DNA of 64,000 nucleotides, from assembly GCA_963804955.1 (NCBI GenBank), contig CAWDSQ010000001.1:17879-81878 (forward strand), written 5' to 3'. Made by a program: the position numbers and the translations under genes. Every line of letters starts with the position of its first letter. The first letter of the stretch is position 1. This document shows, in pieces, positions 16,497 to 58,124 of the stretch. This stretch comes from an uncultured delta proteobacterium (lineage in GTDB: Bacteria; Desulfobacterota; WTBG01; CAIYCZ01; CAIRTM01). The notes below the pieces were generated by a model that saw only the letters and a list, made by a program, of their open reading frames with translations, did not search any database and was not told where the DNA came from.

Positions 16497-16757
16497 ATGC
16501 TGAAAAGAAGGATTTTTAAAATGTTTATATGCATTTTGTGTGGAACAGGTTTGTTGAAATTTTTATTTTTTTGCGGATTGTCATTCACGCTCTTGTCTTT
16601 AAATTTTTACACAAACTTTCTGCGCAGTGCAGAACAAAGCTGGTTTGCATTATTCGACAGGAGTTCCGACGCAGTATCATTGGGACGGCTCGTCAAATCA
16701 AAGCAGGATGGCATCTTTTCTTTTGGGGGGTTGTGCCTTGTTTGGCGTAACCGATGA
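16497..16757 (+). CDS. Small hydrophobic ORF, possibly the detached 5' part of the following membrane-protein gene
   Basis: MLKRRIFKMFICILCGTGLLKFLFFCGLSFTLLSL (one TM span) followed by a polar loop. It is in the same frame as ORF 16839 but separated from it by several stops. A second open frame (16529..16750) overlaps it. Confidence 0.3.
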   Translation: MLKRRIFKMFICILCGTGLLKFLFFCGLSFTLLSLNFYTNFLRSAEQSWFALFDRSSDAVSLGRLVKSKQDGIFSFGGLCLVWRNR

Positions 16758-16838
16758 AGCTACCTGAAAAGATTTGTTATGGTTTTTTAATGACAAATTT
16801 GATAACTATGATGCCTATATTAACAGCAAAAGAGTAGA

Positions 16839-39985: not shown

Positions 39986-40211
39986 TATCGGCTTCCCAGT
40001 TTTCACCAATCGGGGAGACAACATCCCCAACCGTGCAGCAGGCGCGAAGCTCGGCCAAGCGCTTGCGCGCGGCCTCACGCTCGTCGCGCACCGGCACGAG
40101 GCTTGCCACCACTTTGCCGCGTGATGTCACCAAAAGCTGTTCTCCTTTTTTTACCTTGCCGATATAGGCGGGCAGATGGCTTCGCAATTCGGTAATATTT
40201 ATCTGACGCAT
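39972..40211 (-). CDS. Phd/YefM-type antitoxin partner of VapC
   Basis: MRQINITELRSHLPAYIGKVKKGEQLLVTSRGKVVASLVPV is the typical Phd/YefM N-terminus. GGAGAGG lies 4 nt upstream of the ATG. Confidence 0.8.
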   Translation of the reverse strand: MRQINITELRSHLPAYIGKVKKGEQLLVTSRGKVVASLVPVRDEREAARKRLAELRACCTVGDVVSPIGENWEADNAGS

Positions 40212-40220
40212 AAGACCTCT

Positions 40221-40268
40221 CCTTTAACCGTACACTTACAATGTACAGTTAAAGGTTCAATAAGTCAA
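40221..40268 (-). promoter_or_regulatory. Putative vapBC promoter with overlapping operator palindrome
   Basis: On the minus strand: TTGACT (40268-40263), a 17-nt spacer, then TACATT (40245-40240). An inverted repeat CTTTAACCGTACA / TGTACAGTTAAAG (40222-40254, 13-nt arms with 1 mismatch, 7-nt spacer) overlaps the -10 box. Confidence 0.45.
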
Positions 40269-41724
40269 TTCTTTTGCCGCTGGGAATCCGGGGTTTTATC
40301 CGGCTCAAAATGCTGTTTGGCCGCAAGAAAAGACGGCAGATGCCGCAGGAGATGGAACATGCTCCACCGGTGCTGCCAGATGCGCCGGGCGAATGTGCGG
40401 CGCCAGGTGGGGTCGGTAGTAGAAGCGCTTGACATGGCTGTTGTACAGGTAAGTCGAGCTTTTCTTTTGATTCAATGGCCTTCGGGACGAACACGAAATT
40501 CAGGCAGTTCATCAGCTTCCAGTTTTCCTCAAAGGTCCCTTCATCGCGCAGCTCCTGCCAGACAGGCGCGCCCGGGAAGGGCGTAAATTTCGACATGTTC
40601 ATGTCATCCAGCCCCAGGGACATCACAAAGTCGCTCGTTGCCTGAATCGATGCTTCCGTCTCGCCCGGCAGGCCCATCATGAAAAGCCCCTTTGCCCTGA
40701 GGCCGCAGGCTTTGATCCGGGCAACGGTGTCGCGGACCTCATCAAGCGTTACCCCTGCCTTATGGCGCTCAAGCATCGCCGGATCTGCCGATTCGATACC
40801 AACCGATACCATGAGGCAGCCTGCTGCTTTGAGCGTTTTCAGAAGATCATTGTCTGCATGCCCGACCCGCACAGCGCAGTTGAACTGTATGCCCGAGAGG
40901 CTTTGCGGTCAAAAGGCGGCACAGCTCGAAAATGCGGGGCCTGTTCAGGGTAAATAAATCATCATAAATATTTATATGCCGCACGCCGAAGCGCTGGCGC
41001 AGGTGCTTCATATGCTCATAGATGTATTCAGGCGAGTTGTACCGGTACGAGCGCTTAAAGACAGAGCGGTCGCAGTATGAGCACTCATAGGGGCAGCCGC
41101 GGCTGGTTGACATGGTTGCGCCGGGAATTTCGATGAAGCTGAACAGGGGCAGGTTGTATGAACGGGGAAAACCTTTCAGGCCTTCATAGTCAGGAAAAGG
41201 CAGCTGGTCCAGATCCGGCAGGGGCGCGCGGGGAGCATTGGTAACAATCTTTTCACCATCGCGCCAGATGAGGCCGTTGATATGCTGCGGGGTTTGACCT
41301 GATGCAAGCTCTGAAAGGGTTGCCTCTCCTTCTCCGGGAGATCAGATAATCAATGCCGGGAAAGTCCTGCAGCAGAGTCGCACCAAGGGCTGACACATGC
41401 ACGCCGCCAAAGACGGTTTTGACCTGCGGGCGGGCTTGTTTGATCATGTCTGCCATATCATTGCCGTCGAGAAAACTTGACGTGGTCGTTGAAAAGCCGA
41501 CCAGATCGGGAGTCTGCGGCAAGCACGGCCTGTACATTTTCTGCAATGCTCTGAGGCGCTTCCGGGCCGAGGCAGTCATGAATGAAAACCTGATGACCGT
41601 TGCGCTTCAGATAGGCGGATATTGACAGCAGTCCCAGAGGCGCCATCCTGTTTGCCGTGGCGGTAATATCCTTTTTACCGGGGACCCAGTTTGATCCGGC
41701 CGGATGGACAAGCATGATGCGCAT
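40265..41724 (-). pseudogene. Cobalamin-binding-domain radical SAM enzyme (class B rSAM) no. 1; heavily frameshifted (at least 6 indels)
   Basis: MRIMLVHPAGSNW...APLGLLSISAYLKRNGHQVFIHDC; DLVGFSTTTSSF...VFGGVHVSAL; MSTSRGCPYECSYCD (CxxxCxxC); GHADNDLLKTLKAAGCLMVSVGIESADPAMLERHKAG...GLFMMGLPGET. The tail ...YLYNSHVKRFYY / DPTWRRTFARRIWQHRWSMFHLLRHLPSFLAAKQHFEPDKTPDSQRQKN* is spread over three frames, with the stop at 40265-40267. Confidence 0.75.
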
Positions 41725-41751
41725 GGCAATTTAAAGATGAAGGATTTAAAA

Positions 41752-41892
41752 AGAAGTCAGAATTCAGTAGCCGGAATTCAGAATAGAAGATTCACAGCAA
41801 ACCTAAGCATCGGGAACCGTGCACCTGCATGAATTTTTCGAATCTTGAATTGTTTTCCTTCTGACTTCTGGATTCTGAATTCTGGCTACTTC
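41752..41892. repeat. GAATTC-centred palindromic (MITE-like) intergenic element, copy 1
   Basis: AGTAGCCGGAATTCAGAAT (41766-41784) and ATTCTGAATTCTGGCTACT (41872-41890) form a 19-nt inverted repeat with 1 mismatch. The right-end motif recurs at 43961 and 51205. Confidence 0.7.
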
Positions 41893-43238
41893 CCGCTGCC
41901 TATCGAAAAACTTTTCAATCCTTTCCCGGTCATGTTTCCCTGTTGGAAGCACGGGAATGGAATCAACGATTTTGATATGGCGGGGGATGGCATAGGGTTC
42001 GCATAGTTTTTGACAAGCCCGGCCCTTATTGCTGGTGCATCGCATGCTGCCTACAACAAGGGCAGCAATATCGCTGCCCCTGCCGGTGCGGGCTGCATTG
42101 CAAAGACCGACGGCATCACAAACGCCCGAGAGCGTTTTTAATTTATCGCACACTTCAGCAAGATCTACCCGCCTGCCGCCGACTTTTACAATATTGTCGG
42201 CCCGGCCATGAAGGGTAAAGCTGTCGGCCCCGCATGGGTTCTGCGCGGTCGGCAGTGGTAAAAAAGCCATCCTGATCGCGGGGCAGCTCGGGCGAGAGAA
42301 AATCCGAGCGCACCAGCAGCTGCCCATTGAGTATCTTCCAGTCAATGCCTTGAAACGCGCGGCATACATGCCTGTCGGCCGGGGAAGCTGTCCATGCAAT
42401 GCCTCCTGTTTCCGTGGAGCCGTAAATTTCGGTGACGGCAATACCGGTTTTTTCATAAAAATACTCGGCATCAGGCCGTGGAGCATGCCGGCAGATGAAA
42501 AAGCCAGCCTGAGGGTATAGCGCTGCAGGTTTTCGGTTTTCAGCACATGATACTGCGACGGGAACGCTTACTAAAATTGTAGCCTCCGAATCTCTGGCTG
42601 CGGCAAGAATTTCTTGCGGAAATGAATACACGGGCTCAAGCACGGTGCAGCCCGACATGAGCGGCACCAGAACGGAAAAAAGCAGCCCGTAAATGTGCTG
42701 TGGCGGCACGGTTGAAAGAATACAATCATCGGGGGCCTATGCCAAATGTTTCTGCAAGAAGCTGCGCTTCGCCAAAAAGGTTCCGTGCGGTTTTAGACCA
42801 CAGCTTTGGTTTGCCGGTTGAGCCGCCGGTAAAGAGCATGACTCGCGGCGCATCGGCATCACCTGCAGTATACACAAGAGGCGCAGGCAGAATGCCACGC
42901 TCTCTGGCGTGATAACCGTGTAGCCTGTGGGCGGGCATCTTTGCTGCTGGAGAGGATTTTTGAAAAAGGGATGCTTGACTCGCGCATCGTCGAGAGCCTG
43001 CTGGAAAAGGCATAGGGAATAATGATGCGCGGCCCGCCGCACGCAGCGGCAAGCAGGGCAGCGGCCATACGGGTTTTGTCCTGCGTCCAGAGGCAGAGGG
43101 GCTCATCCGGTGAACTAAGGCTGCACAGGCCTGCAGCTAAAGGCCACATCAGCCCGGTTTGGCCACCGGCAATGAACGGGCTTGAAGGCGGCTGCCGGTA
43201 CTACGATTAAGGCAATCAGTCAGTTTGTCTTTCATGGT
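41803..43238 (-). pseudogene. AMP-dependent synthetase/ligase (adenylate-forming, aryl/acyl-activating); at least 5 frameshifts
   Basis: Fragments in different frames: MKDKLTDCLN (ATG at 43238); MLFTGGSTGKPKLWSKT (AMP motif); PPQHIYGLLFSVLVPLMSGCTVL; TEIYGSTETGGIA; HGRADNIVKVGGRRVDLAEV; PVLPTGKHDR. The 3' end is approximate because the ORF runs into the repeat element. Confidence 0.75.
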
Positions 43239-43386
43239 TTTAAAAAAGCAATTTCTGGATAGGCCCGTAGAGCAGGGGGTATTTCTTGACTTTTCGGGCT
43301 GTTTATATTCTATTCACATAATCCTGCTGCTATCAGCACATGCTTTAAGTAGCATGATTTTGTCCAATTGCCAATTACAGTGTTCT

Positions 43387-43808
43387 ATGCCCGACAGAGC
43401 TATTGATGATTTGATACCGCATCGCGGCCGAATGAAGCTGATCGGGTCGATTGTGCAGGTCAGCAATGATATCGCCGTTACCTCGGCAGTTGTGGCCGAT
43501 ACCTGGCCCCTGTGTGCACGGGGCTTCAGTGAACCCGATCGTGCTCATAGAGGTAGCTGCGCAGACGGCGGGCGTGCTCTCCTGCTGGAAAAAGGGCGAG
43601 AGCAGATCGGCCTTCACAGCCGGAATGCTTACGGGCATCAAAAGCGCTGAATTTTTTGTCGACCAGGTGCCTCTGCACGCAGAGCTGATCACCACGGCCA
43701 CGATCATGTACAGCCTTGATGATTATGAGGCAATTGAGGCAACGGTCATGCTGGGACGAGCAGTGCCTCTGCAAAGTGCAGCTGCAGATATTCGGGGTGC
43801 GGGGATAA
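43387..43808 (+). pseudogene. Hot-dog fold beta-hydroxyacyl-ACP dehydratase (ApeI/ApeP-like); two frameshifts (~43515 in a G4 run, ~43755)
   Basis: MPDRAIDDLIPHRGRMKLIGSIV...TWPLCARG, then VNPIVLIEVAAQTAGVLSCW...FTAGMLTGIKSAEF, then DEQCLCKVQLQIFGVRG* (stop at 43806-43808). Confidence 0.7.
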
Positions 43809-43811
43809 AAA

Positions 43812-43997
43812 CAGGATTCAGAAGCCAGAATCCAGAGTCCAGGAATTCAGAAGAAAAAAATTCAAACTGCAGGGCAGGATCCTGGCCTGCATGGGTTCGG
43901 AGTTCGTAGTATGGGCATCCGCCGTGGCGAATCCTTGCCCAAGTGTGCTTTGTATCTTCTATTCTGAATTCTGACTACTGGATTCTGGATTCTAAAG
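43812..43997. repeat. GAATTC-centred palindromic (MITE-like) intergenic element, copy 2
   Basis: The left end reads caggattcagaagccagaatccagagtccaggaattcagaag. The right end carries ATTCTGAATTCTGACTACT (43961-43979) followed by ggattctggattct. Confidence 0.65.
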
Positions 43998-44029
43998 ATT
44001 ATTGCTAAACTTTACAGACCGGGAGCTGT

Positions 44030-44758
44030 ATGGACAATCAGAAGATCGCCATCGTCACCGGCGGCAGCCGCGGCATAGGCCGTGCTATTGCCTGTGAGCT
44101 TGCCGCTGCGGGCTATTATGTCATCATAACCTACAAGACAAATGACGCGCAGGCGCAGGAGACGGTTGCAGGCATTCAGGCACAGGGCGGCGCAGCAGAG
44201 GCTGTGAAGTTTGACGTGGCTGATGCTGCAGAGGCCGCCCTGCAGATGAATGCCATCTGCAGCCGGTTTCAAAACATACAGGTGCTGGTCAATAATGCCG
44301 GCATTACCGCAGACGGCTTGTTCATGCTCATGACCGAGACAGAGTGGAACTCGGTGATCGATACATCGCTCAAAGGCTTTTACAATGTCACGCAGCCGGT
44401 GCTGAAAAAAATGGCCGTGAATCACAGCGGGTCGATTGTGGCTATTTCCTCTGTGTCGGCGCTTATGGGCAATCGCGGCCAGTCAAATTATGCAGCTGCC
44501 AAGGCGGGCATAATTGCCGCATCCAAAGCCCTTGCCTGCGAAGTGGCGCGCACGGGCATCAGGGTCAATGTCGTGGCGCCGGGGCTCATCGATACGGAAA
44601 TGATCAAGGATGTTCCCGTGCTGAAAATCAAAGAGATAATACCCATGGCGCGCATTGGCAAACCGGAGGAGGTGGCAAAGGTTGTGCGCTTTCTCTGCTC
44701 CGATGATGCCTCCTATGTTACCGGCCAGGTCATCTCGGTCAATGGGGGCATGTTTTAG
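44030..44758 (+). CDS. fabG: 3-oxoacyl-ACP reductase
   Basis: IAIVTGGSRGIGRAIA...NNAGIT...SSVSALMGNRGQSNYAAAKAG (S...YxxxK)...VNVVAPGLIDTEM...VNGGMF. Intact 242-aa ORF. Confidence 0.9.
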   Translation: MDNQKIAIVTGGSRGIGRAIACELAAAGYYVIITYKTNDAQAQETVAGIQAQGGAAEAVKFDVADAAEAALQMNAICSRFQNIQVLVNNAGITADGLFMLMTETEWNSVIDTSLKGFYNVTQPVLKKMAVNHSGSIVAISSVSALMGNRGQSNYAAAKAGIIAASKALACEVARTGIRVNVVAPGLIDTEMIKDVPVLKIKEIIPMARIGKPEEVAKVVRFLCSDDASYVTGQVISVNGGMF

Positions 44759-44759
44759 G

Positions 44760-45383
44760 ATGAAAAGGGCAAAGCCGATGCGCCGGCTGCTTTCTCTTGG
44801 CTGTATGCGCGACTGCTGCTGTCCGGCTGGTCAGGCTCATGGGAAACCCTACAGAAGGAGTCTGAAAAGATTACCTCCGTGAGCGCCCGTTTCACGCAGT
44901 CAAAAAATATGCGCATACTTTCTAAACCCCTCGTTTCGACCGGCAGCTTTTATTTTAAAGCGCCGGACTCCGTGCGCTGGGAATATGAAGCGCCGGTGAA
45001 GAGCATTCTGCTGATGCATGAGGGTTCAGTCAAGCGGTATACGCAGGGAGCCAGGGGACTTACCGAGGATGCAGGGGCGGCTCTGCAGTCGATGAATGTG
45101 ATGCTGCAGGAAATAGCCCTGTGGAGCAAGGGGCGGTTTACTGAAAGCCCGGGCTTTGCAGCCGTGCTGAAAGCGGGCGACGGGCCGGCAATTCTGCTGA
45201 CGCCCCGGGACGAAGGGCTTGGCAAAAATTATAACCGGTATCGAAATTGCGCTTGCACCGGACAGGCCCGGCGTGATTTCAACTATCACCATTCGCGAGG
45301 GCGAAGGGGGCACAACGGTCTTGCAGTTCAGCGATGTGCAGATCAATGCAGCGCTGAGCGACAGCGTGTTTCGGAGCCCGTGA
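44760..45383 (+). pseudogene. LolA-like outer-membrane lipoprotein-carrier family protein; about 3 frameshifts (two within 44790-44850, one near 45230)
   Basis: MKRAKPMRR... (ATG at 44760, 1 nt after the fabG stop); WETLQKESEKITSVSARFTQSKNMRILSKPLVSTGSFYFKAPDSVRWEYEAPV...; then IITGIEIALAPDRPGVISTITIREGEGGTTVLQFSDVQINAALSDSVFRSP* (stop at 45381-45383). Confidence 0.65.
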
Positions 45384-46070
45384 TGAAAAAATGCAGGTCC
45401 ATTATTCTTTTGTGCGCGCTGGCTGCGGCGCTGCTGCCGGCATGCGCAGGCCCCCGGCATATACGGCCCGAGCCGGTAAATCCTGCGCTGTGCAGGCTGC
45501 CTTTCACCAGCACGAGCTGCCGCTATATTCACGCTCTTGATGCCGAACTGCCCGGCGGCACGCGCATGACGGTTATGGGCATTTCGGTTATTGATCCTGG
45601 GGCTGATACGATACAGGCCGCCATTATGACGCTGGAAGGGCTGCTGCTTTTTGATGCCACGGCATCGGCCGGCAGCATGCAGGTGCATCGCGCTTTGCCG
45701 CCTTTTGACGGGCCGCAGTTTGCCGAAGGGCTTATGCGGGATGTGCGGTTTATTTTTATGTTTCCTGCCGGTGCGCCTGCAATGACCGGCAGGCTTGATG
45801 ACGGTTCATCCGTCTGCCGGTATCAGGACACATTCGGTATGACGGTTGATGTGATCGTTCATCCTGGCCGGGGCTGGGAGGTTGAGCAGTATTCAACCTT
45901 CGGTAAAAAGCTGCGCAGCTTAAAAATTGATGCACTGCAGAACGGCATTCCCGGCATGCTGGAGTTTGAGGCCTTCAGCCCGAAGCCCTATGCCCTGCAC
46001 CTGAAGCTGATCAGCGCCGAGCCGGTCACGCCGGATGACAAAAGTAAAATTGCTGGCGTGCACTGTATGA
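45383..46070 (+). pseudogene. Putative lipoprotein (position and size match the DUF3261-type lipoprotein of aryl-polyene loci); probable frameshift near its 3' end
   Basis: MKKCRSIILLCALAAALLPACAG has a signal peptide and a Cys lipobox-like site. There is no stop in its frame before the rSAM gene. In the neighbouring frame a TGA at 46068-46070 forms an ATGA overlap with the rSAM start. Family assignment is by context only. Confidence 0.5.
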
Positions 46071-47412
46071 AATTCAAACTCATCTACCCGCAATGGAAAA
46101 AGCTTGAACGGCAGACCGAATTTCATCTGCCGCCGCATGGCCCGGTTGTGTTTGCCGCAACGCTGCCGCCGCATGTGGAGGTGGAGTTTGTGGATGAAAA
46201 CGTGCAGGCCCTTGAGCTTGACGATGCCCCCGATTTTGTCGGCATTTCCATGATGCTCACCGCGCAGGTCAGGCGCGGCTGGCAGATTGCCGATCACTAT
46301 CGCAGCCGGGGCATCAAGGTCATCTGCGGCGGCATTGCCACCATGCTGCATGCGCAGGAAACGATGGAGCATGCCGATTCGGTATTTCTCGGAGAGGCCG
46401 AAGGCAGGATGGCCGGTGTCTGGATGATTTTAAAAACAACAGGCTCAAGCCCTGCTATGACTATATGACCGACTATCCTGCCGTGGAGCTCATCGGCCCG
46501 GCCCGCAGAAGCATTCTGCAGCGCGATCTCTACAATTACCGGGGCGTGCAGATGGTTGATCTCGTGCATGCCTCGCGCGGGTGCCGGTTCAACTGCTATC
46601 CCTGCTGCGTTAATTTTCTGGGCGGCCGGCAGTTCAGGCCCCGGCCCTATGATAAGGTTATAGAGGAGATGGCAGGCATCGACAATAACCGGCTTTTCAT
46701 CGTGGACAATTCTCTTGCGCAGAACAAGCAGTGGGAGCTGGGCCTGTTCCGGGAAATGGAGGGGCTGAAAAAAAAGTGGTGCTGCCATCCCATCGAAGAA
46801 GATGATGAGGTTCTGGAAGCCGCGGCCCGGGCAGGGGCCTGGTATGTGTATCAGGCCGTCTTTGACACTTCAGACCATATCAGCAACAGGATAAAGCGTT
46901 ATCACGACTATGGCATAGCCGTTGAGGGCACCATACTGCTTGGCCTTGACAATCACACCGAGGACTATATCAAGCGGCTCATCGATTTTTTGCTTGAGGT
47001 AGAGCTTGATATGGCGGAGTTTACCGTGCTGACACCGTTTCCGCACACGCAGGCATTTGATGATATGCACGGGCAGGGCCGCATCACGAGCTATGACTGG
47101 AATGATTACACCTGCGACAGGGTTGTGTTTCAGCCCCGGCACATACAAGCCGAGCGCCTGCAGGAGCTGTACTATTATGCCTGGGACATGTTCTACCGCG
47201 ACGAGCCGCAGAACTATAAGATGTTCAGCCTTTTCAAGAAAGTTGTAGAAAAGGAAAAGGCTGATGAGACTTTTATTCCCCGGCGGCGCGACCTTGCCGG
47301 CAGAGTGTTCGGCAGGAAGAATAGCAGGAGCAGACCGTGTGTCTGCCGTAGGGGCGCAGTGCCTGCGCCCAAAATAACGATACCGCAGGGGCAGACCAGC
47401 GTGTCTGCCTGA
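46067..47412 (+). pseudogene. Cobalamin-binding-domain radical SAM enzyme no. 2; one frameshift near 46425
   Basis: MKFKLIYPQWKKLE...DFVGISMMLTAQVRRGWQIADHYRSRGIKVICGGI...FLGEAEGRMAGVW, then DDFKNNRLKPCYDY...LVHASRGCRFNCYPC (Cys triad)...AEFTVLTPFPHTQ. Confidence 0.75.
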
Positions 47413-47423
47413 AGAGGCAATAC

Positions 47424-48980
47424 ATGACAAAAAAAAATAGTGTTATAGTCGGGCAGGGGCCGGTGTCCTGCGAGCAGATCGTGGCGGTTGCCCGCGGTCA
47501 GGCCCGGGTAAAGCTCAGCGCTCAAAAGACTTTCCTTGCACGCATGAACCGTTCGCAGGTCCATGCTGCAAAAAGCACTGAGAGAAGGCGTCGCGGTGTA
47601 TGGCGTCAACACAGGTTTCGGCAAAGCCTGCGGCAAGCGCATGCAGGCTGATGCAGCGCTGCAAAAAATCGCCAATCCCCTGCCGTTTCACGGCTGCGGC
47701 ACGGGCGAGCCCATCGGCATTGAAGAGACGCGGGCTGCCATGCTCTGCCGCATGCTCTGCCTTGCAACCGGCTACTCGGGCGTGTCCATCGGCCTGCTGC
47801 GGCAGCTTGAAGCATTTTTGAATCTTGGCATTACGCCTGTTGTGCCCTGCCAGGGATCGGTGGGCGCATCGGGCGATCTGACGCCCATGTCCTATATCGC
47901 TGCCTGCCTTGCCGGCGAGCGGGATGTTTTTTATACAGGCAGGCGCATGAGCGCACGGCAGGCCCTGAAAAAAACCGGCCTGACAACCCTATGTCTTTGA
48001 GCCGAAAGAGCCCCTTGCCATGGTCAACGGCACATCGACCATGACCGGCATTGCCGTCATGGCTGTGGAGCGCAGCCGCAGCTATTCTTCATGCCGCCGT
48101 GTGCGCCGCAGCCCTGACCGTGCATGCTTTCAGGGGCAAGTCGCATCACTTCCATCCTGTCATCAGCAAGGCAAAGCCTTTTGCCGGGCAGGACGCTGTG
48201 GCCCGAAGCCTGACCCTGCTTCTGCAGGCAAAGGGCTCTACGGCGCATCTCGAGGAAGACGGGCCCGAAGCGCTGCAGGATCCCTATTCCGTGCGCTGCA
48301 CGCCGCAGATCGCAGGCGTGCTGTCGGACGCGCTCGCCTGGATATCCCAATGGGTCGAGACCGAGGCCAACAGCTCAAACGACAATCCGATTTTTGATCC
48401 GGCCACAGGCGAGCCGCTTATGAGCGGCAATTTCTATGGCGGCCATATCGCTTTTGCCATGGACAGTCTGAAGGCTGCCCTGGCATCGGTTGCCGATATG
48501 GCTGACCGCCAGATCATGCTGCTGGTGAACCCGCAGCTCAGCCGGGGGCTGCCTGAAGATCTTGTGGGTGTAGCAGGACGCGAGCACTTTTTTCATCACG
48601 GGTTCAAGGCAATGTCGATAACAGCCTCTGCCCTTGCCGCCGAAGCGCTTAAATTGACCATGCCTGCGGCATCGTTTTCACGGTCCAGCGAATCGCATAA
48701 TCAGGACAAGGTGAGCATGGGCACCATCGCGGCCCGCGATGCCGAGCAGGTATGCACCATTGTTGAGCGCACAGTGGCCATCCACCTGCTTGCGGCAGCG
48801 CAGGCCTGTGATCTTCGGGGCCGGGTTGAGGCGCGGCCGCGGCTTGCAGCGCTTGTCAGAAGCATCAGGAAGCTTTCACCGCGCCTGGTGGCGGACCGGC
48901 CCCTTGACCGCGACATTGAGGCTGTTGCGCAGGCAATTGCCGACGGCAGCCTGTTTCTCAACCCTTACGAGGATACATGA
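47424..48980 (+). pseudogene. MIO-dependent aromatic/histidine ammonia-lyase (HAL/PAL/TAL family); three frameshifts (~47558, ~47985, ~48075)
   Basis: VYGVNTGFG...; GSVGASGDLTPMSY (the Ala-Ser-Gly MIO triad); MVNGTSTMTG; DPYSVRCTPQIAGV...NDNPIF...GNFYGGHIAFAMD...SESHNQDKVSMG. Confidence 0.8.
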
Positions 48981-48984
48981 CGCC

Positions 48985-49407
48985 ATGACCCGCGAGCATC
49001 ATGCAAGCTTTGAAATTGAGCGCAAGGTCGCCTTCTATGAGCTTGACCCCATGCAGATCGTGTGGCACGGCAACTACTATAAGTATTTTGAAGACGCCCG
49101 TTCGGGCCTGCTGCGCCAGGCGGGCATAGACCTGCACGACTTTTATGTAAAAAGCAATTGCGTTTTTCCCATCATCAAAACCGCCACCAAGCATATCTAT
49201 CCCCTGCGCTACGGCGATGAATTCATCTGCAGGGCCACTGTTGCCGAATGCAAAGAAAAGCTCGTTGTTGATTTCGAGATACGGCTCAAGGAGGGCGGCA
49301 GGGTCTGCGTTAAAGGCCGGACCGAGCAGGTGGCTGTGCAGATGCCCGAAGGCGAGATGCAGTTTGAGCTGCCTGCTGCAATCCGCTCTGCCCTGGGGAT
49401 GCTGTGA
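48985..49407 (+). CDS. 4-hydroxybenzoyl-CoA thioesterase (4HBT/YbgC) family acyl thioesterase
   Basis: FEIERKVAFYELDPMQIVWHGNYYKYFEDARSGLL..., a hot-dog thioesterase N-terminal motif. 140 aa from the ATG at 48985. Confidence 0.8.
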   Translation: MTREHHASFEIERKVAFYELDPMQIVWHGNYYKYFEDARSGLLRQAGIDLHDFYVKSNCVFPIIKTATKHIYPLRYGDEFICRATVAECKEKLVVDFEIRLKEGGRVCVKGRTEQVAVQMPEGEMQFELPAAIRSALGML

Positions 49408-51111
49408 CGGGGCCGCTTTTTCACGAAGCCCTTGCCTCGGGCGCTGAGCAGGTAGCGGTCTGGTCGCAGCTTCTGGACCGGATCAATGTCTTTCCCGTTG
49501 CCGATGGCGACACGGGCCGCAATCTTGTCATAAGCCTTGCCCCGCTGCGGCAGCAGGTGAGCAGCCCGGAAAAACTCTGCCGGAGCCTGCTGCTTGCCGC
49601 CCGCGGCAATTCCGGCAATATTGCAGCCCGTTTCCTGCAGGAGTTCGCGCTCTTGCCCTCGCTTAAGGATCTGGCGGCCACGGTGCAGCGAGGCCGTGAT
49701 ATGGCATACGGGGCTGTGAGCGAGCCCAAGCCCGGCACCATGCTCAGCCTTTTCGACAGGCTTGCCGATCTTTGCAGTGAAATCCCGGCAGACATGAATG
49801 CCGCGTGGACGGCCTGGCTTCTCTCCTCGCTTGAACATGCCGTTGCCGATACCGTGCACGGGCAGCAGGTTTTGCAGCAGGCCGGGGTGGTTGATGCCGG
49901 GGCCCTGGGCATGTATCTTTTTTTTGACGGTTTTTTCAGCCGGCTTGCCGGCACTGAGTATTTCTTCTCACCGGCCCGTGCCTGCTTTAAAGATAATCTT
50001 CGCATTGCCGACTCGTTCAGCCGGGAGACAACAGCCGGTTTCTGCATCGATGCCGTGGTGGAATCGGCAGGCAGCCTGCAATCAGCCCTGGGGAGCGATC
50101 CTGACAGCGCTCGTTGTCATGCGCAGCGGGGAGTATGTCAAGGTGCATCTCCATGCCCCTGATAGGGAAAAGGCAAAGTCGGATCTGGCAGCGCTGGGTA
50201 AAATTATTTCGTGGGCAGACGATGATCTGGCTAGCCAGACCGCGGTTTTTTCACGGCCCGCTGCAGCCTCAGCGGTCCATATCATGACCGATGCCGCAGG
50301 CTCCATTACCCGCGAAGATGCCGCAGCGCTCGGGCTTACCCTGCTTGACAGCTATATAAACATGGGCGATACAAGCCTGCCGGAGACCTGCTGTTCGCCT
50401 GCTGATATATATAAAGCCATGCGCGAAGGCTGCCGCTGCTCAACTGCGCAGGCTTCAATGGATGAGCGCTGCCAGCACTACCTGAGCGTGCTTGGACTCA
50501 ATAAAAACGTGCTCTATCTGTGCGTGGGCTCGGTATATACGGGCAATTATCAGGCCGCCTCCGGCTGGAAACAGAAGCATGATCACGATAGCCGTTTCAG
50601 CATTATAGATACGGGCACAGCTTCGGGCAGGCTTGCCGTGGCCGTGCATCTCACGGCGCGTTTCGCCCGGCAGGCGGCAGGGGCGGCCGAGGTTGAAGCT
50701 TTTGCGCGCAAGGCGCTTTCAAACTGTCATGAATATATATTTGTCGACACTTTGGGCTATCTTGCCGCCGGCGGCAGGCTTTCTAAAACCGGTGCCTTTT
50801 TCGGGGATATGCTAAAGTTTAAACCCGTCATCAGCCCGCAGCCTGACGGCGCGCAAAAGGTCGGCATGGTCAGAAACCGCGATGAGCAGGTGCGGTTTGC
50901 CCTTGAAAAGCTCTCAGAGGTTTTCACGCCTGAGGCAAAGGGCCTGATACTTCTTGAGTATACCGACAACCGCAGCTTTGTTGAGGAAACAGCCGCAACC
51001 GTGCAGCGCCGTTTCCCGAAGACAGAACTGCTTGTGCGGCCTTTGTCGCTCACAACAGGCGTGCATACGGGGCCGGGCACCTGGGCCGTGGCGTTTGCAG
51101 CGGAGGAATAA
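49404..51111 (+). pseudogene. Fusion of a Dak2/DhaL (FakA-like kinase) domain with a DegV (FakB-like fatty-acid-binding) domain; one frameshift near 50090
   Basis: N-terminal part: RINVFPVADGDTGRNLVISL...AARGNSGNIAARF (Dak2 motifs). C-terminal part: VHIMTDAAGSITREDAAALGLTLLDSYINMGDTS...YLCVGSVYTGNY...IIDTGTASG...LSLTTGVHTGPGTW (DegV). The GTG start overlaps the thioesterase stop. Confidence 0.75.
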
Positions 51112-51237
51112 AGAAGGAATTCAGTATCCAGTAGTCAGTAGCCAGAAGAAAAAATTTAAATCATTTCGGAGGCCAGATACATTTTTGGAATCTCAGTATC
51201 TTTTATTCTGAATTCTGGCTGCTGAATTCTGGCTTCC
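51112..51237. repeat. GAATTC-centred palindromic (MITE-like) intergenic element, copy 3
   Basis: The left end reads agaaggaattcagtatccagtagtcagtagccagaag. The right end carries ATTCTGAATTCTGGCTGCT (51205-51223) followed by gaattctggcttcc. Confidence 0.65.
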
Positions 51238-51277
51238 TTTTGAAGGACAAAATTGTTTACTGCCTGATTGTTAAAAT

Positions 51278-52002
51278 ATGCGCTGTGCCATTGTCATTCC
51301 CGTCTATAATCATGAAGCCACGGTCGCCGAAGTGGTGCGGCAAAGCCTCGCACTGGGCTATCCCGTAATTGTCGTTGATGACGGTTCAACAGACAGCACC
51401 TATGAACGGATCAGGGATATTCCGTGCCGTCACCATTCTGCGGCATGCGCAGAACCGGGGCAAGGGAGCAGCGCTGCTTACGGGGTTTGCTCGAAGCAGC
51501 AAAAAACGCCGACTGGGCTGCAACCCTGGATGCCGATGGCCAGCACCGGCCCGAAGACCTGCCGCTACTGCTTGCCGCGGTGCCTGAAGGCAAGCGGCCC
51601 ATCGTGGTGGGCCGGCGCGAGGGCATGCAGGCTGAGCATGTGCCCTGGGCAAGCAGGTTCGGCAGAAAATTTTCAAATTTCTGGGTGCAGGCATCGGGCG
51701 GCCCTGCCATTTCCGATACGCAGAGCGGCATGCGCCTCTACCCGCTGCCGGAAACGATTAACCTGCCGGTGCGGGCGCGCCGGTTTCAGTTCGAGGTTGA
51801 GGTCCTGGTAAAGGCGCGCTGGTACGGCGTGCCTGTGGTGGAAGCGCCTATTCATGTCTCCTATGCCCCGAAAGGCGAGCGCATTTCCCATTACCGTGGC
51901 TTTGTCGATTCCATGAGAAACTCGGCAGCATTTACGCGTCTTATTTTCGGGCGGTTTTTCTTTCTGCCTTTTATCCGCTTCAGGCGGAAGGCTTCATGGT
52001 GA
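51278..52002 (+). pseudogene. GT2 glycosyltransferase; two frameshifts (~51420, ~51485)
   Basis: MRCAIVIPVYNHEATVAEVV...VIVVDDGSTDST, then VTILRHAQNRGKGAALLTGF, then ADWAATLDADGQHRPEDL...SDTQSGMRLYP...FEVEVLV. Confidence 0.8.
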
Positions 52003-52006
52003 GGGT

Positions 52007-55000
52007 ATGAAGAAACGCTATGCTCTGCGCTGGTCACTGGCCGGGCTGATACTGCTTTCAGTCACAGGGTTTTTTATTGCAGGTATCTATCGCCTTCAGT
52101 TTTCAACCGATATGCTTGCAGCGCTGCCGCAGGATGATCCCGTGCTGGCAGATGCCCGCTATGTGCTCATGCACAATCCGGCACTGGAAAAAATTGTCAT
52201 CGACATAAGCCTTGCCCGTGAGGATATGGCGCTGCTGACCGAATGCGCTGCTTTTGTTGAAGCGCGGCTGCGGAAAAGCGGCCTTTTCAAACAGGTAGGC
52301 TTAGAGCATATGACCAAGCTCATGCCCGGTTTTTTGCAGTATGCCGCGGAGGGTCTGCCGGTGCTGTTCAGCGAGCGCGAGCTGACAGAAGAAGTGGCGC
52401 CCCTGCTGTCACCCGACAAGGTGCGCGCGGCGCTGGCTGCCCATCTTGCCGGTTTAAGCGGCCTTGAGGGTATCGGTCAGGCAGAGCTTATGGCGGGCGA
52501 CCCTTTGAACCTGCGAAATCTTGTGCTGAGCCGCATGGCCGGTTTAATTCCTGTCAAGAATGCCCGGTTCGTGAAGGGGCAGCTCATGTCAGGCGACGGC
52601 AGGCACCTGCTTATCATTGCCGAGCCCGCAGGCCCGGGCACTGATACGGCCTTTGCCCGCAGGCTTGATGCTTTGATGCAGCAGACCGCCGGTGAGGTTG
52701 AGGCCCGCTATGGCGCTGAAAATGCCGTGACGCTGACCCCGGTCGGCTCCTACCGAACGTCCCTTGACAATGAGGAGAATGCAAAGCGCACTGTGCAGCG
52801 GGCCACGCTCTTTTCAACCGTGGCCGTTGCACTGTTGCTGCTGTGCGCATTTCCCCGGCCTTTGATCGGGCTTCTGGCGCTGCTGCCCGCTTTTGCCGGA
52901 ACCATGTTTGCGGTTTTTGTCTATTCTCTTTTCAATACTTCCATCTCTCTTCTGGCTGTGGGTTTCGGCGGCGCCATCGTTTCATTTACCGTTGATTACG
53001 GCATTGCCTATCTGCTTTTTCTCGACCGTTGTCACGAGACCAAGGGCTTCGAAGCATCCCGCGAGGTCTGGTCCCTCGGTCTTATCGCCATGCTCACCAC
53101 TGCCGTCAGCTTTGCGGCTCTCAGTCTGAGCGGTTTCCCGGCCCTTGCCGAGATAGGGCTGTTCAGCGCCCTGGGCGTAGTTTTTACCTATATTTTCGTC
53201 CACGCCATATTCCCCCTCGTATTTGCCCGCATGCCTGCCGCAGGCCATGAGCCTTTCGTGCCTCTGCAGGCTTTTGTGAACATACTCGCTTCATCCCGCA
53301 CCAGCTGGAAAGCACCTGCAGCAATCGCCTTCGGCATCGCTATGCTTTTTTTTGCCCGGCCTGATTTTCATATTGATCTCACCGCGCTCAATGCAGCGAC
53401 CCCGCAAACACGTGCAGCGGAAAAGCTTGTGCAGCAGGTCTGGGGCGATGTTACCGGCAGCATGCAGCTCATGCTGGAGGCAGGCTCCAGGGATGAGCTT
53501 GCCCGCCGCGGCGACCGGGTATCTCGCATGCTGCAGGCCGAGATAGCCGGCGGCGCGGTGCAGCCCTGCTTCCTTCCTTCGTCGCTGCTTCCCGGGGCGG
53601 AGGTTCGCCGGGAAAATTTTGCCGCCTGGCAGCGCTTCTGGAGCACAGAGCGCATTGCCGGCCTTGAAGCAGCCGTCGGTGCGGCATCGCGCGATCTCGG
53701 GTTTGCTCCCGATGCTTTTGCGCCTTTTTTTGCCATGCTTGCCAGCCCCGCCATGCCGCAGGCTTCAATGCCCGATGAGCTTTGCGCTTTGCTTGGCATA
53801 GCACAGGATGCAGAGGCCGGCATCTGGCGGCAGGTGCTCACGCTTGCGCCCGGTTCATCATATGCCGCAGATGATTTCTACAGCCGCATTTCCGCTGACG
53901 CTGCAGCGCGGCTGTTTGACCCTGCTCTTTTCAGCCAGAGACTGGGGACGGTGCTCCTGTCGGGGTTTCTAAAAATGGCGCTCATTGTCGGCCTGGTAAC
54001 GGTACTGGTCGCGCTTTTATTTTTTATGGACTGGCAGCTTACCCTGCTTGGTATTGCGCCGACGGTGTTTGCCCTCATCTGCACACTGGGCACTCTTGAA
54101 ACTTATGGGCCAGCCTCTGGGCATCCCCACGCTCATGGTGGCTGTCGTGGTTATCGGCATGGGCACGGACTATGCGCTGTATTTAATCCGCGCCTATCAG
54201 CGCTATTGTGATGAAGCCAATGCCTCCCTCGGTCTTATCCGCCTGTCGGTTTTTCTCTCGTTTGCCACCACGCTGCTTGGCTTTGGCGTGCTTGCCGTGT
54301 GCGATAATCCCATGCTCAAAAGCGCCGGCCTCGGGCTTGCCCTTGGCATCGGCTATTCATTCATCGGCGCTGTCACCATTGTGCCGCCGGTATTAAAGCG
54401 GCTGTTTGCGCCTGCGCGTTTTCCTGACGAAACGGTTCAGGCCGGCTCGCGGCGGCACTTTCAGAGGTTTATCAGCCATTACCGGCATATGGAGTCATAC
54501 CCTCGGTTCTTTGCCCGCTTCAAGGTCCTGTGTGATCCCATGTTCCCCCGGCTTGCGGATTTTTTGCATGCACCGCGCACAGTCATTGATATCGGCACCG
54601 GCTATGGCGTGCCTGCGGTCTGGCTGCTTGAGCTGTTTCCGGATTTAAAAGTATATGGCATCGAGCCGGATGCACGAAGGGTGCGCTTTGCCAGCCGCGC
54701 CATTGGCGGGCGCGGGCTCGGTACAGGTGGGCCGGGCGCCTGATGTCCCCGATGCGCCAGGGCCTGCCGATGCAGCGCTGCTGCTTGATATGCTCCACTA
54801 TATAACCGATGATGAAGTGCGGCTCACGCTTTCGCGCCTGCGTGAAAAGCTGCGCCCCGGCGCACAGCTCATTGTGCGGGTAACCATTCCCCTGCATGAG
54901 CGCGCATCAGTGCTGCGCTTTGTTGAAACAACACGCCTGAAGATACTGGGCATTGCGTCGTATTTGCGCACGGCGCAGCAGGTGCGCGCACTTATTACGG

Positions 55001-55077
55001 ATGCGGGCTTTACCATCACCTGTGAAGAGCCAACTGCCCAGGGTAGTGAAATTATCTGGTTTATTGCTGAAAAATAA
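52007..55077 (+). pseudogene. MMPL/RND-superfamily lipid exporter fused in frame to a C-terminal class I SAM methyltransferase domain; two frameshifts (~54098, ~54710)
   Basis: There are about 12 TM spans with two large loops (52007-54400). Across the first frameshift the text reads ...ICTLGTL, then KLMGQPLGIPTLMVAVVVIGMGTDYALY. There is no stop before ...HYRHMESYPRFFARFKVLCDPMFPRL...VIDIGTGYGVPAVWLLELFPDLKVYGIEPD (SAM motif I) ...LLDMLHYITDDE...LRPGAQLIVRV. Confidence 0.7.
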
Positions 55078-55080
55078 AAG

Positions 55081-55260
55081 ATTCACCGCAGAGACGCAAA
55101 GAGCGCAAAGGGTTAATGCTTTTTGTTTTTCGCTGAGAGAGCAAAAAACAAAAAAAGTGCACTTTTCGGCAAATGAGGCGATGTCTTTCCCTTTGTGCCT
55201 TCTCAGCAAAAAAGGAAAGACATATCTTCACTCTGCGGCCTCCGCGCCTCTGCGGTGAAT
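55081..55260. repeat. MITE-like element with terminal inverted repeats
   Basis: ATTCACCGCAGAG (55081-55093) and CTCTGCGGTGAAT (55248-55260) form a perfect 13-nt TIR. Similarity extends to about 24 of 31 nt. An internal 10-bp hairpin ATGTCTTTCC/GGAAAGACAT is also present. Confidence 0.7.
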
Positions 55261-55283
55261 TTATGCGTAAGAAAATTTTTTGA

Positions 55284-55379
55284 GGTTGGGTTAAGCCCGG
55301 GAAATCCGTTGGGTTTCGTACCTCAATCCATACAGATAACGGTCTTATTAAAACCCATATTCTTAAGGGCGAACCCAAC
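55284..55379. repeat. Second palindromic intergenic element (GGTTGGGTTAAGCCC ... GGGCGAACCCAAC)
   Basis: Its ends are inverted repeats. The left-end 17-mer GGTTGGGTTAAGCCCGG is identical to 36813-36829. Confidence 0.6.
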
Positions 55380-55396
55380 AAATCAACGTATGAGAT

Positions 55397-56296
55397 TATG
55401 ACAGACCTTTTCTACCGCTGCCTGATGTTTGTCTCCGGCTTCACCGGCGCCTGGCTGTTTAAAGCCGGGGCCTGGTGGGTTGCAACGGGCTATTTCTTTC
55501 TGTTTCCGCAGCGGGTTCGGCACGAGCATCAATTTCTATAAAGCGCTTTTCCCTGTGCGCGGATTTTTCTATCATCTCTTCTGCGCCTGGCGTCAGTTTC
55601 ACAATTTCACCACGATCTTTCTCGACCGCTGGCTTGCCCGCAACCCGGGCAGCATCACCTTTTCGCAGGAGGGCCGGGAGCATATTGAAAAGATCGCATG
55701 TGACGGAACCGGCGGCATTATGCTCATGTCGCATCTTGGCAACTGGGAGCTTGGGGCGAGCTATCTTGGGAGCCGCACTGACGGGCCTGCCATAAAACTT
55801 CTTCTGTATCTGGGGGAAAAGCAGGGCGAGCAGATCGAGGGGCTGCAGAAAAAGGACCTTGCCCTGCAGGGCGTGAAGATCATCGCCACAAAGCAGGGCG
55901 AAGCCTCACCCTTTGACCTTGTGGAGGGAGTGCGCTTTATAAAAGAAGGCGGCTTTGTCTCCATGACCGGCGACCGCCTGTGGAGCGCTGCCCAGCGCTC
56001 GGTTGCAGTGAAGTTTTTAGGCCGCGAGGCCCGCATACCCGAGGCACCGTTTCAGTTTGCCCTGCTCTCAGGCGCACCGCTCATTATCTTTTTTGTGAAC
56101 CGCCTGGGCAACGGCAGATACCATTCCACGCTCTTCCCGCCGTATTGCGGTTGCGGCAGCATCCCGCAGCGAGCGCGCGGAAGCCATTCGCAAGGCTGCG
56201 CAGCAGTATGCCGATATCCTGGAGACCATGGTGCGGCGGTATCCCTTTGAGTGGTATCACTTCGAGCGGTTTATTGAGCCGGGGGGTAGTGAATAA
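55397..56296 (+). pseudogene. Lysophospholipid/lipid A-type acyltransferase (LpxL/HtrB family); frameshifts near 55518 and at 56147
   Basis: MTDLFYRCLMFVSGFTGAWLF...FLFPQRVR, then TSINFYKALFP...GGIMLMSHLGNWELG (H-x4-E/D acyltransferase motif)...FVSMTGDR...IPEAPFQFALLSGAPLIIFF. After an extra G at 56147 the correct frame reads VAAASRSERAEAIRKAAQQYADILETMVRRYPFEWYHFERFIEPGGSE*. Confidence 0.75.
56020..56278 (+). repeat. Direct repeat copy 1 (3' end of the acyltransferase gene)
   Basis: 56034-56278 aligns with 57857-58100. By hand alignment there are 9 substitutions and one 1-nt indel. Weaker similarity extends ~15 nt further upstream. Confidence 0.85.
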
Positions 56297-56329
56297 CGGC
56301 GCCCTTGAGTTTTTCCGTTTTTTGGGTTA

Positions 56330-57835: not shown

Positions 57836-57845
57836 GGCCGGGAGG

Positions 57846-58124
57846 GTGGTGAGGATCATCCCCGAGGCACCGTTTCAGTTTGCCCTGCTCTCAGGCGCAC
57901 CGCTCATTATCTTTTTTGTGAACCGCCTGGGCAACGGCAGATACCATTCCACGCTCTTCCCGCCATATTCGGTTGCGGCAGCATCCCGCAGCGCGCGCGC
58001 GGAAGCCATCCGCCAGGCCGCGCAGCAGTATGCCGATATCCTGGAGACCATGGTGAGGCGGTATCCCTTTGAGTGGTATCACTTTGAGCGGCTTATTGAG
58101 GTAAGCGGCGGACATACTTCGTGA
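57846..58124 (+). pseudogene. Direct repeat copy 2: detached duplicate of the acyltransferase C-terminus (92-codon ORF)
   Basis: IPEAPFQFALLSGAPLIIFFVNRLGNGRYHSTLFPPYSVAAASRSARAEAIRQAAQQYADILETMVRRYPFEWYHFERLIE is nearly identical to the end of the 55397 gene. It lacks the catalytic N-terminal part. Confidence 0.8.

What the first reader, a model, noticed from the sequence alone, without database searches (positions are those of the whole stretch)
49404..51111. Single-polypeptide Dak2 (FakA-like) - DegV (FakB-like) fusion inside the lipid locus
Seen: the N-terminal ~230 aa carry Dak2/DhaL motifs (VFPVADGDTGRNL, ARGNSGNI). The C-terminal ~290 aa are a DegV domain (HIMTDAAGSITRED...). The two ORFs join across one frameshift near 50090. 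The gene is start/stop-coupled to the preceding thioesterase.

Established knowledge: in Firmicutes, fatty acid kinase consists of FakA, whose N-terminal Dak2 domain binds ATP, and the DegV-family fatty-acid-binding protein FakB.

Inference: the fusion could be a self-contained kinase that converts the free acid released by the adjacent thioesterase into an acyl-phosphate for the neighbouring acyltransferase. That step is not described for aryl-polyene-type loci. The fusion lacks the middle and C-terminal FakA domains, so a kinase function is not assured.
Basis: partly seen in the sequence, partly recalled or inferred. Interest (0 to 1): 0.6.

Follow-up and report, generated by a model that had tools for sequence, protein, structure and literature searches.

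The report
Single-chain fatty acid kinase, frameshifted by assembly
The gene encodes a one-piece version of the normally two-protein bacterial fatty acid kinase, a conserved but untested part of an aryl-polyene-like lipid gene cluster in syntroph and sulfate-reducer lineages; the break in its reading frame here is most likely a sequencing error.

Summary
Window 49404-51111 (+) encodes one 568-aa protein: a Dak2 ATP domain, a FakA-type middle domain and a true DegV domain.

The frame is broken by one extra base at about 50110, not 50090. A 96%-identical relative has an unbroken 568-aa gene. The same 7.7 kb carries 13 more 1-nt insertions. rpoB, plsX and plsY are also split. dN/dS is 0.06-0.31 with no nonsense codons. 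The break is therefore almost certainly an assembly error.

- The FakA middle domain is present.
- The DegV domain sits where FakA's own degenerate DegV-like C-domain would be.

All Mg/ATP, zinc and carboxylate-binding residues are conserved.

In 80 genomes the gene lies between a 4HBT thioesterase (65/76, start and stop within 8 nt) and a GT2 (53/70). A distant sister clade of the same fusion sits directly upstream of plsY in 4 of 5 contexts, which supports an acyl-phosphate product.

Kinase activity and substrate remain untested. The architecture is mentioned in the literature, and this scan has already flagged the same family in over 100 other genomes.

The parts
48985..49407 (+). 4HBT/YbgC-type thioesterase (ApeK-like). 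Its TGA stop overlaps the GTG start of the kinase gene.
   Evidence: Pfam 4HBT/4HBT_2 and NCBIfam YbgC/FadM. The 140-aa homologue lies directly upstream in L001, L006, L007 and L008. It is directly upstream in 65/76 loci.
49404..50109 (+). Kinase gene, part A (frame 0). It holds the Dak2/DhaL-type ATP domain (about 49494-49934) and the first strand of the FakA-like middle domain (from about 50040).
   Evidence: Pfam Dak2 31-177. NCBIfam YloV positions 2-233 and FakA 4-204. phmmer alignment to FakA structures 7w7h, 7rm7 and 8vip.
50108..50110 (+). Site of the single extra base that splits the gene. It is most likely an assembly insertion error. It lies in a low-confidence loop of the middle domain.
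   Evidence: Alignment to L001. Intact 568-aa P0002. Model pLDDT is below 50 at residues 230-234. The locus shows dN/dS 0.16 and no nonsense codons.
50111..51111 (+). Kinase gene, part B (frame +1). It holds the rest of the FakA-like middle domain (to about 50241) and the DegV fatty-acid-binding domain (50275-51102), ending with the stop codon.
   Evidence: Pfam DegV, E 2e-42, and FakA-like_M. TIGR00762 scores 156.8 bits, above its cut-off. Foldseek TM 0.80-0.87 to DegV/FakB structures.
51278..52002 (+). GT2 glycosyltransferase (ApeJ-like), also split by 1-nt insertions. It is the conserved downstream neighbour.
   Evidence: Directly downstream in 53/70 loci.
52007..55077 (+). MMPL-type exporter fused to a SAM methyltransferase, in three frames here.
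55398..56278 (+). LpxL/ApeD-type acyltransferase (Lip_A_acyltrans), frameshifted.

Best explanation
The gene is intact in the organism and encodes a single-chain fatty-acid-kinase-type enzyme.

Domains and their proposed roles:
- The N-terminal Dak2 domain binds Mg-ATP.
- The FakA-type middle domain is a Cys/His zinc module that probably mediates dimerisation.
- The C-terminal DegV domain holds a carboxylic acid in a hydrophobic tunnel, with the carboxylate fixed by Thr/Thr/Arg/His.
- The DegV domain sits where FakA carries its degenerate, Arg-less DegV-like domain. No separate FakB is therefore needed.

Proposed reaction and pathway (inferred):
- The enzyme transfers the gamma-phosphate of ATP to the bound acid and gives an acyl-phosphate.
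- This clade is a dedicated part of an aryl-polyene-like lipid cluster.
- The co-translated 4HBT thioesterase frees an acid from its thioester and the kinase re-activates it.
- The acyl-phosphate is then used for lipid assembly, either by the cluster's transferases or through the genome's PlsX/PlsY.

Status of each step:
- Shown: architecture, residue conservation, synteny, and the plsY linkage of the sister clade.
- Inferred: catalysis, substrate identity and the acceptor.
For: - Architecture and fold: Pfam and NCBIfam. phmmer aligns residues 2-276 to S. suis FakA 5-317. The AlphaFold model has pLDDT 87 and pTM 0.89. By Foldseek, FakA 7w7h is the top hit, DegV/FakB structures give TM 0.80-0.87 and FakA_N gives 0.78.
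- Residues invariant or nearly so across both clades: D34, D36, T37, G38, N40, G68-N-S-G71, D164xG, C214, H248, H250, T347, R458 and H554. They correspond to the functionally tested D37/D39, C244/H289/H291 and T61/S93/R170/H264 of the S. suis system (PMC10848957).
- Single polypeptide in relatives.
- Conserved synteny and translational coupling with the thioesterase.
- In the distant clade of the same fusion, plsY, the acyl-phosphate-using acyltransferase, lies directly downstream in 4 of 5 contexts, with at least three different upstream neighbourhoods.
- The own genome has PlsX and PlsY but no other Dak2 or DegV gene.
- Frameshift as an artefact.
Against: - No biochemical test exists for any fused member in the papers searched.
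- The fourth zinc ligand of S. suis FakA_M (H226) has no clear equivalent.
- The carboxylate-binding Ser is Thr in this clade (GSVYTGNY against LSGT). The protein scores far below the FakA and FakB equivalog cut-offs.
- None of the cluster's transferases (GT2, LpxL-type) is known to use acyl-phosphate. A PlsY-like gene is within 10 kb in only 1 of 80 loci.
- In E. coli the ApeK thioesterase showed no hydrolysis in vitro (PMC8253772), so the supply of free acid is itself uncertain.
- The frameshift could not be checked against reads. rpoC is unbroken, so the error rate is uneven across the assembly.
Confidence: 0.6

Rival explanations
1. It is a general fatty acid kinase that feeds exogenous or recycled fatty acids into ordinary phospholipid synthesis through PlsX/PlsY. 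Its place in the lipid cluster would be incidental.
For: It is the only Dak2 and the only DegV gene in the genome. The genome has PlsX and PlsY. The sister clade is linked to plsY.
Against: The position between the thioesterase and GT2 is conserved across 80 loci at 48-86% identity, with start/stop coupling. The gene is patchy: 27 of 300 other genomes of the phylum have it and 0 of 7 in the own family. It therefore travels with the cluster and is not a housekeeping gene.
Confidence: 0.15
2. It is a lipid-binding chaperone, carrier or sensor that does not phosphorylate. The DegV domain would hand the hydrophobic product to the transferases or exporter. The Dak2 domain would bind nucleotide only as a regulator, as DhaL/DhaK do when they regulate DhaR.
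For: Many DegV proteins have no demonstrated kinase partner. The cluster has no recognised acyl-phosphate consumer. The clade has diverged from FakA and FakB.
Against: All Mg/ATP-binding and carboxylate-binding residues are invariant across about 25% identity. That is the pattern expected for a working active site. The sister clade is linked to plsY.
Confidence: 0.12
3. The frameshift is real. The gene, and perhaps the whole cluster, is a recent pseudogene in this strain, or it yields two separate proteins.
For: Frameshifts are denser in this locus (14 single-base insertions in 7.7 kb) than in rpoB/rpoC (one in about 8 kb). Reads could not be examined.
Against: - All the 1-nt indels against L001 are insertions in the window.
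- About 2,350 codons contain no nonsense codon, and dN/dS is 0.06-0.31.
- The essential genes rpoB, plsX and plsY are also split, and a nuoF-like gene outside the locus is broken.
- The break falls inside the middle domain, so neither product would hold an intact domain.
- Relatives carry a single open frame.
Confidence: 0.05

Closest known systems
Two-component fatty acid kinase FakA + FakB of Firmicutes (S. aureus, S. suis; PDB 7W7H, 7RM7, 8VIP, 5UTO, 4X9X)
   Same: - An N-terminal Dak2/DhaL ATP domain with the DGDTG, RGNSG and VVDxG motifs.
- A FakA-type middle domain with the Cys...HxH zinc residues.
- A DegV fold with the Thr, Ser/Thr, Arg, His carboxylate-binding set.
- The expected product, acyl-phosphate, fits the plsY linkage of the sister clade.
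   Different: - One chain instead of two proteins.
- The true, Arg-bearing DegV domain replaces FakA's degenerate FakB-docking C-domain (PF13684).
- Only 15-28% identity to the solved structures, and scores far below the FakA, YloV and FakB equivalog cut-offs.
- Found in Gram-negative-type anaerobes, inside a specialised lipid cluster and coupled to a thioesterase, not in a fatty acid scavenging setting.
plsY-linked Dak2-FakA_M-DegV fusions of KSB1, Calditrichota and Desulfoplanes ('DegV family EDD domain-containing protein', 'DAK2 domain-containing protein')
   Same: The same three-domain order and length (about 595-635 aa). The same invariant catalytic, zinc and carboxylate residues.
   Different: Only about 23-27% identical. 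Those proteins keep the canonical LSGT serine and sit directly upstream of plsY. The window's clade has GSVYTGNY and sits between a 4HBT thioesterase and a GT2 in an aryl-polyene-like cluster.
Dihydroxyacetone kinase DhaK/DhaL and single-chain DAK (Dak1-Dak2)
   Same: A Dak2 nucleotide domain paired with an EDD-fold substrate-binding domain. Single-chain versions exist.
   Different: The domain order is reversed (Dak2 first). A zinc middle domain is inserted. The substrate domain is DegV, which binds a fatty acid, not Dak1, which forms a hemiaminal with dihydroxyacetone.
Canonical aryl-polyene (APE) gene clusters of E. coli and Xenorhabdus (ApeA-R)
   Same: The neighbours correspond to ApeP (dehydratase), ApeQ (FabG), ApeL (LolA-like), ApeK (4HBT thioesterase), ApeJ (GT2), ApeM plus ApeB (MMPL plus methyltransferase), ApeD (acyltransferase) and ApeH (AMP ligase).
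   Different: Canonical clusters have no Dak2 or DegV gene. E. coli and B. thetaiotaomicron have no DegV hit (controls). This variant adds the fused kinase, B12-radical SAM enzymes and often an aromatic ammonia-lyase. In this genome the ketosynthases lie on other contigs.

Membership tests
FakA (fatty acid kinase catalytic subunit; NF038248, TIGR03599 YloV) | N-terminal Dak2/DhaL domain with the Mg-ATP residues (two Asp of DGDTG, RGNSG, VVDxG) | tested here: met
   Pfam Dak2. D34, D36, G68-N-S-G71 and D164 are invariant. They align to D37/D39 of S. suis FakA and D38/D40 of S. aureus FakA.
FakA (fatty acid kinase catalytic subunit; NF038248, TIGR03599 YloV) | Middle domain (PF21645) with the C1H3 zinc site | tested here: inconclusive
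   The domain is present. It scores 20.9 bits in the window's protein, below the 24.9 cut-off, and 33-75 bits in relatives. C214, H248 and H250 are invariant and match C244, H289 and H291. No equivalent of H226 was identified.
FakA (fatty acid kinase catalytic subunit; NF038248, TIGR03599 YloV) | C-terminal FakB-docking domain (PF13684 FakA-like_C) and a whole-protein score above the curated cut-off | tested here: not met
   The window's protein has no PF13684 hit; the position is filled by PF02645 DegV. On the N-terminal ORF alone, YloV scores 111.6 bits against a cut-off of 396 and FakA 71 bits against 975.
FakB / DegV (PF02645, TIGR00762) | DegV (EDD) fold | tested here: met
   PF02645 scores 145 bits. 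TIGR00762 scores 156.8 bits against a cut-off of 99.7. Foldseek TM 0.80-0.87 to fatty-acid-loaded DegV/FakB structures.
FakB / DegV (PF02645, TIGR00762) | Carboxylate-binding Thr, Ser, Arg and His (T61, S93, R170, H264 in S. suis FakB2) | tested here: met
   T347, T379 (a conservative Ser-to-Thr change), R458 and H554 were placed by motif and spacing from the alignment to 1pzx. Arg and His are invariant across both clades.
FakB / DegV (PF02645, TIGR00762) | Free-standing protein of about 280 aa that docks on FakA; equivalog score (NF038249 FakB1) | tested here: not met
   The domain is fused in one chain. NF038249 scores 30.9 bits against a cut-off of 350.
Fatty acid kinase (function) | ATP-dependent formation of acyl-phosphate from a bound fatty acid | not testable with these tools
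   Indirect support only: conserved active-site residues and the plsY adjacency of the sister clade.
Aryl-polyene-type lipid gene cluster | Co-located ApeP-like dehydratase, FabG, LolA-like protein, 4HBT thioesterase, GT2, MMPL exporter, acyltransferase and AMP ligase | tested here: met
   Gene order in the window and in relatives.
Aryl-polyene-type lipid gene cluster | Cluster-encoded ketosynthase/chain-length-factor pair and ACP | tested here: inconclusive
   None lies within the window's locus. In the own genome the ketosynthase groups are on other contigs. A ketosynthase is within 10 kb in 37 of 80 relatives and an ACP in 8 of 80.

The most novel reading that the evidence does not exclude
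Two linked readings remain open.

1. Acyl-phosphate is an unrecognised activated intermediate in the assembly of aryl-polyene-type outer-membrane lipids in anaerobes. The thioesterase would release the acid, the kinase would re-activate it, and it would then be transferred independently of ACP.

2. The fused protein preserves the ancestral state of fatty acid kinase, in which the C-terminal EDD domain itself presents the acid to the Dak2 domain. That would help settle the open dispute over where FakA phosphorylates its substrate.
Probability: 0.3. Interest if true: 0.65.

Novelty: new variant of a known kind. Interest (0 to 1): 0.42.

Why it matters
Fatty acid kinase is described as a two-protein system of Gram-positive bacteria for scavenging fatty acids. 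A widespread single-chain form would extend acyl-phosphate chemistry to specialised lipid biosynthesis in Gram-negative-type anaerobes, where it is built into an aryl-polyene-like cluster and translationally coupled to a thioesterase. It would also give the poorly understood ApeK-type thioesterase a role.

The fused form is a natural experiment on Fak mechanism. It places a functional DegV domain in the position of FakA's pseudo-DegV domain.

For this genome, the practical message is that the assembly carries many single-base insertion errors. Split genes in it should not be read as pseudogenes.

Tried and rejected
- My first read-through put the shift at the GGGG run near 50090 (P0001). It gave six wrong residues. 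The alignment to L001/P0002 moved the shift to 50110.
- Programmed frameshifting was rejected. Relatives have a plain open frame and the site has no slippery sequence.
- Whole-cluster pseudogenisation was considered, because rpoC is intact while the locus is riddled with shifts. It was rejected on three grounds: the indels are insertions only, there are no nonsense codons, and dN/dS is low.
- gyrB (TIGR01059) gave no hit in the own genome, so it said nothing about the error rate.
- The look-up of the Desulfoplanes protein P0321 found no contig.
- Literature searches for 'aryl polyene' with DegV, and for DegV with ammonia-lyase, thioesterase and glycosyltransferase, found nothing. 'FakA FakB fused' found no description of a natural fusion.
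The distance between the ATP site and the carboxylate site, and cis against trans (dimer) catalysis, could not be measured.

Full report
**1. Observation**

Window 49404-51111 (+) holds two overlapping ORFs, 49404-50162 and 49798-51111, offset by +1.
- The first ORF matches Pfam Dak2 (E 9e-14), NCBIfam YloV positions 2-233 of 530, and FakA 4-204 of 549.
- The second ORF matches DegV (E 2e-42; TIGR00762 at 156.8 bits, above its cut-off) and, weakly, FakA-like_M.
- Read through, the protein has 568 residues: Dak2 at 31-177, FakA-like_M at 213-279 and DegV at 291-566.
- The GTG start overlaps the TGA stop of the upstream 4HBT thioesterase as GTGA, and GGGGA lies just upstream.

**2. The frameshift**

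A metagenome contig (L001) is 96% identical in DNA. It encodes an uninterrupted 568-aa protein (P0002) that is 95% identical, with the same neighbours.

Aligned to L001, the window has one extra base at 50110 (CAGCG[C]TCGT). The true junction reads ...SALGSDPDS|VVVMRSGEY.

Evidence that the extra base is an assembly error:
- The same 7.7-kb alignment shows 13 more single-base insertions in the window and no single-base deletion in coding sequence.
- Mapping the proteins of an 86% relative (L014) shows that the radical SAM, dehydratase, ammonia-lyase, GT2, MMPL and acyltransferase genes are each spread over 2-5 frames.
- Elsewhere in the assembly rpoB, plsY and plsX are split, and a nuoF-like gene in the window is broken.
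- rpoC, porA and a GDP-fucose synthase gene are whole. The error rate is therefore uneven.
- With the inserted bases ignored, the six locus genes show dN/dS of 0.06-0.31 against L001 and no nonsense codon in about 2,350 codons.
- The break lies in a loop inside the middle domain (model pLDDT below 50 at residues 230-234). Two separate products would each lack an intact domain.

I conclude that this is an assembly insertion error.

**3. What the protein is**
- phmmer against the PDB aligns residues 2-276 with S. suis FakA 5-317, covering the N and M domains, and with the S. aureus FakA N-domain. The C-terminal half aligns with DegV/FakB structures.
- An AlphaFold model built from 35 homologues has mean pLDDT 87.4 and pTM 0.89.
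- By Foldseek the top hit is full-length FakA (7w7h, E 1e-22). The C-terminal domain superposes on fatty-acid-loaded DegV/FakB structures at TM 0.80-0.87, and the N-domain on FakA_N at 0.78.
- FakA's own C-domain is a degenerate DegV fold that lacks the carboxylate-stabilising arginine (PMC10848957). Here a genuine DegV domain occupies that position.

**4. Residues**

Across 35 close homologues, and across a 21-sequence alignment reaching about 23% identity, the following are invariant or nearly so:
- D34, D36, T37, G38 and N40 (DGDTG).
- G68-N-S-G71 (RGNSG).
- D164xG.
- C214, H248 and H250.
- T347, R458 and H554-x-GP.

Correspondence with the tested S. suis residues:
- D34/D36 correspond to the Mg-binding D37/D39 of S. 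suis FakA, whose mutation abolishes activity.
- C214/H248/H250 correspond to the zinc ligands C244/H289/H291.
- T347/T379/R458/H554 correspond to the carboxylate-binding T61/S93/R170/H264 of FakB2.
- The Ser-to-Thr change (GSVYTGNY instead of LSGT) is a signature of this clade.
- The fourth zinc ligand, H226, has no clear counterpart.

**5. Family and distribution**
- More than 3000 proteins of about 570 aa match at E up to 1e-3. The best 120, at 50% identity or more, nearly all carry Dak2 plus FakA_M plus DegV, and sources name them 'DegV family protein'.
- The 50%-clustered library holds 195 clusters at E up to 1e-30. They form tiers at 40-49%, 31-35% and 26-30% identity, all full length and all with the same three domains.
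- At least 468 species genomes encode a relative. They are mainly Syntrophales, Smithella and Syntrophaceae, Desulfobacterales, a few Spirochaetota and other MAGs.
- In an even sample of the phylum, 27 of 300 other genomes have it, usually as a single open frame. None of 7 genomes in the own family has it. It is therefore an accessory gene with a patchy distribution.

**6. Context**

The typical gene order is: AMP ligase (opposite strand), ApeP-like dehydratase, FabG, LolA-like protein, lipoprotein, B12-radical SAM enzyme, aromatic ammonia-lyase, 4HBT thioesterase, fusion, GT2, MMPL-methyltransferase, LpxL-type acyltransferase.
- The thioesterase is directly upstream in 65 of 76 loci with enough flank.
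- The GT2 is directly downstream in 53 of 70.
- The thioesterase stop and the fusion start lie within -8 to +8 nt in 67 of 68 loci.
- Ketosynthases are within 10 kb in 37 of 80 loci. In this genome they lie on other contigs.

This is an aryl-polyene-like cluster. In the canonical E. coli and Xenorhabdus systems the role of the ApeK thioesterase is unsettled, and ApeD and ApeJ attach the acyl chains (PMC8253772; 10.1101/2020.12.19.423268). Those clusters have no DegV or Dak2 gene (controls).

**7. Support for a kinase product**

A much larger, distant clade of the same fusion has more than 7000 hits at E up to 1e-30. It occurs in KSB1, Calditrichota and Desulfoplanes.
- In this clade plsY, the acyl-phosphate:glycerol-3-phosphate acyltransferase, lies directly downstream in 4 of 5 contexts examined, with differing upstream genes.
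- The window's genome has PlsX and PlsY but no other Dak2 or DegV gene.

**8. Mechanism proposed**
- Shown: one chain with intact ATP, zinc and carboxylate sites, dedicated to the cluster and co-translated with the thioesterase.
- Inferred: the thioesterase frees a carboxylic acid. The DegV domain captures it. The Dak2 domain phosphorylates it, in cis or across a dimer mediated by the middle domain. The acyl-phosphate then feeds lipid assembly through the cluster's transferases or through PlsX/PlsY.
- Unknown: the substrate (an ordinary fatty acid or a cluster-specific acid) and the acceptor.

**9. Novelty**
- Dak2-DegV fusions are mentioned in the literature: 10.1101/2021.02.16.431466, citing Erni et al. 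2006.
- They are abundant in databases. I found no biochemical study of one, and no paper linking DegV to aryl-polyene clusters.
- This scan has already flagged the same family in over 100 other genomes, with follow-up reports that reached the same reading.
- What this window adds is mainly the resolution of the frameshift as an assembly artefact.

Noticed in passing
window 40000-56300, and G000 contigs C16, C20 and C30: The assembly carries many single-base insertion errors. Nearly every gene of the lipid locus is split over 2-5 frames, and rpoB, plsX and plsY are also split. rpoC, porA and a GDP-fucose synthase gene are intact. The reported completeness of 87% probably reflects this.
   Followed up: partly
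L001 (ena:ERZ25039513:contig_53257), whole locus: This metagenome contig matches the window in both orientations (L001 2476-9143 reversed and 9152-16855 forward). It looks like an inverted-duplicate (palindromic) assembly chimera. Its gene sequences are nonetheless intact.
   Followed up: no
window 55398-56278 and 57840-58112: The C-terminal ~90 residues of a relative's LpxL-type acyltransferase map a second time at 57840-58112. This is beyond the hicAB islet and fits an insertion that duplicated the gene's 3' end.
   Followed up: partly
window 51221-51234: A 14-nt insertion (GCTGAATTCTGGCT) relative to L001 lies in the spacer between the kinase gene and the GT2 gene. It duplicates a TTCTGGCT unit of the GAATTC-centred intergenic repeats.
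   Followed up: no
window 9328-11193 (-): One 621-aa ORF joins a complete sugar aminotransferase (residues 1-389) to part of a glycosyltransferase (residues 436-584, AglJ-like positions 41-188 of 293). It may be a real fusion, or two genes joined by an assembly indel.
   Followed up: no
window 1-64000: GC content is very uneven, from 33% at 6-8 kb to 60% at 48-50 kb. The polysaccharide gene region in the first half is much more AT-rich than the lipid locus.
   Followed up: no
L082 (JBKQQP010000026.1): This is the only one of the 80 related loci with a PlsY-like match within 10 kb of the fusion gene. It also lacks the usual thioesterase and GT2 neighbours.
   Followed up: no
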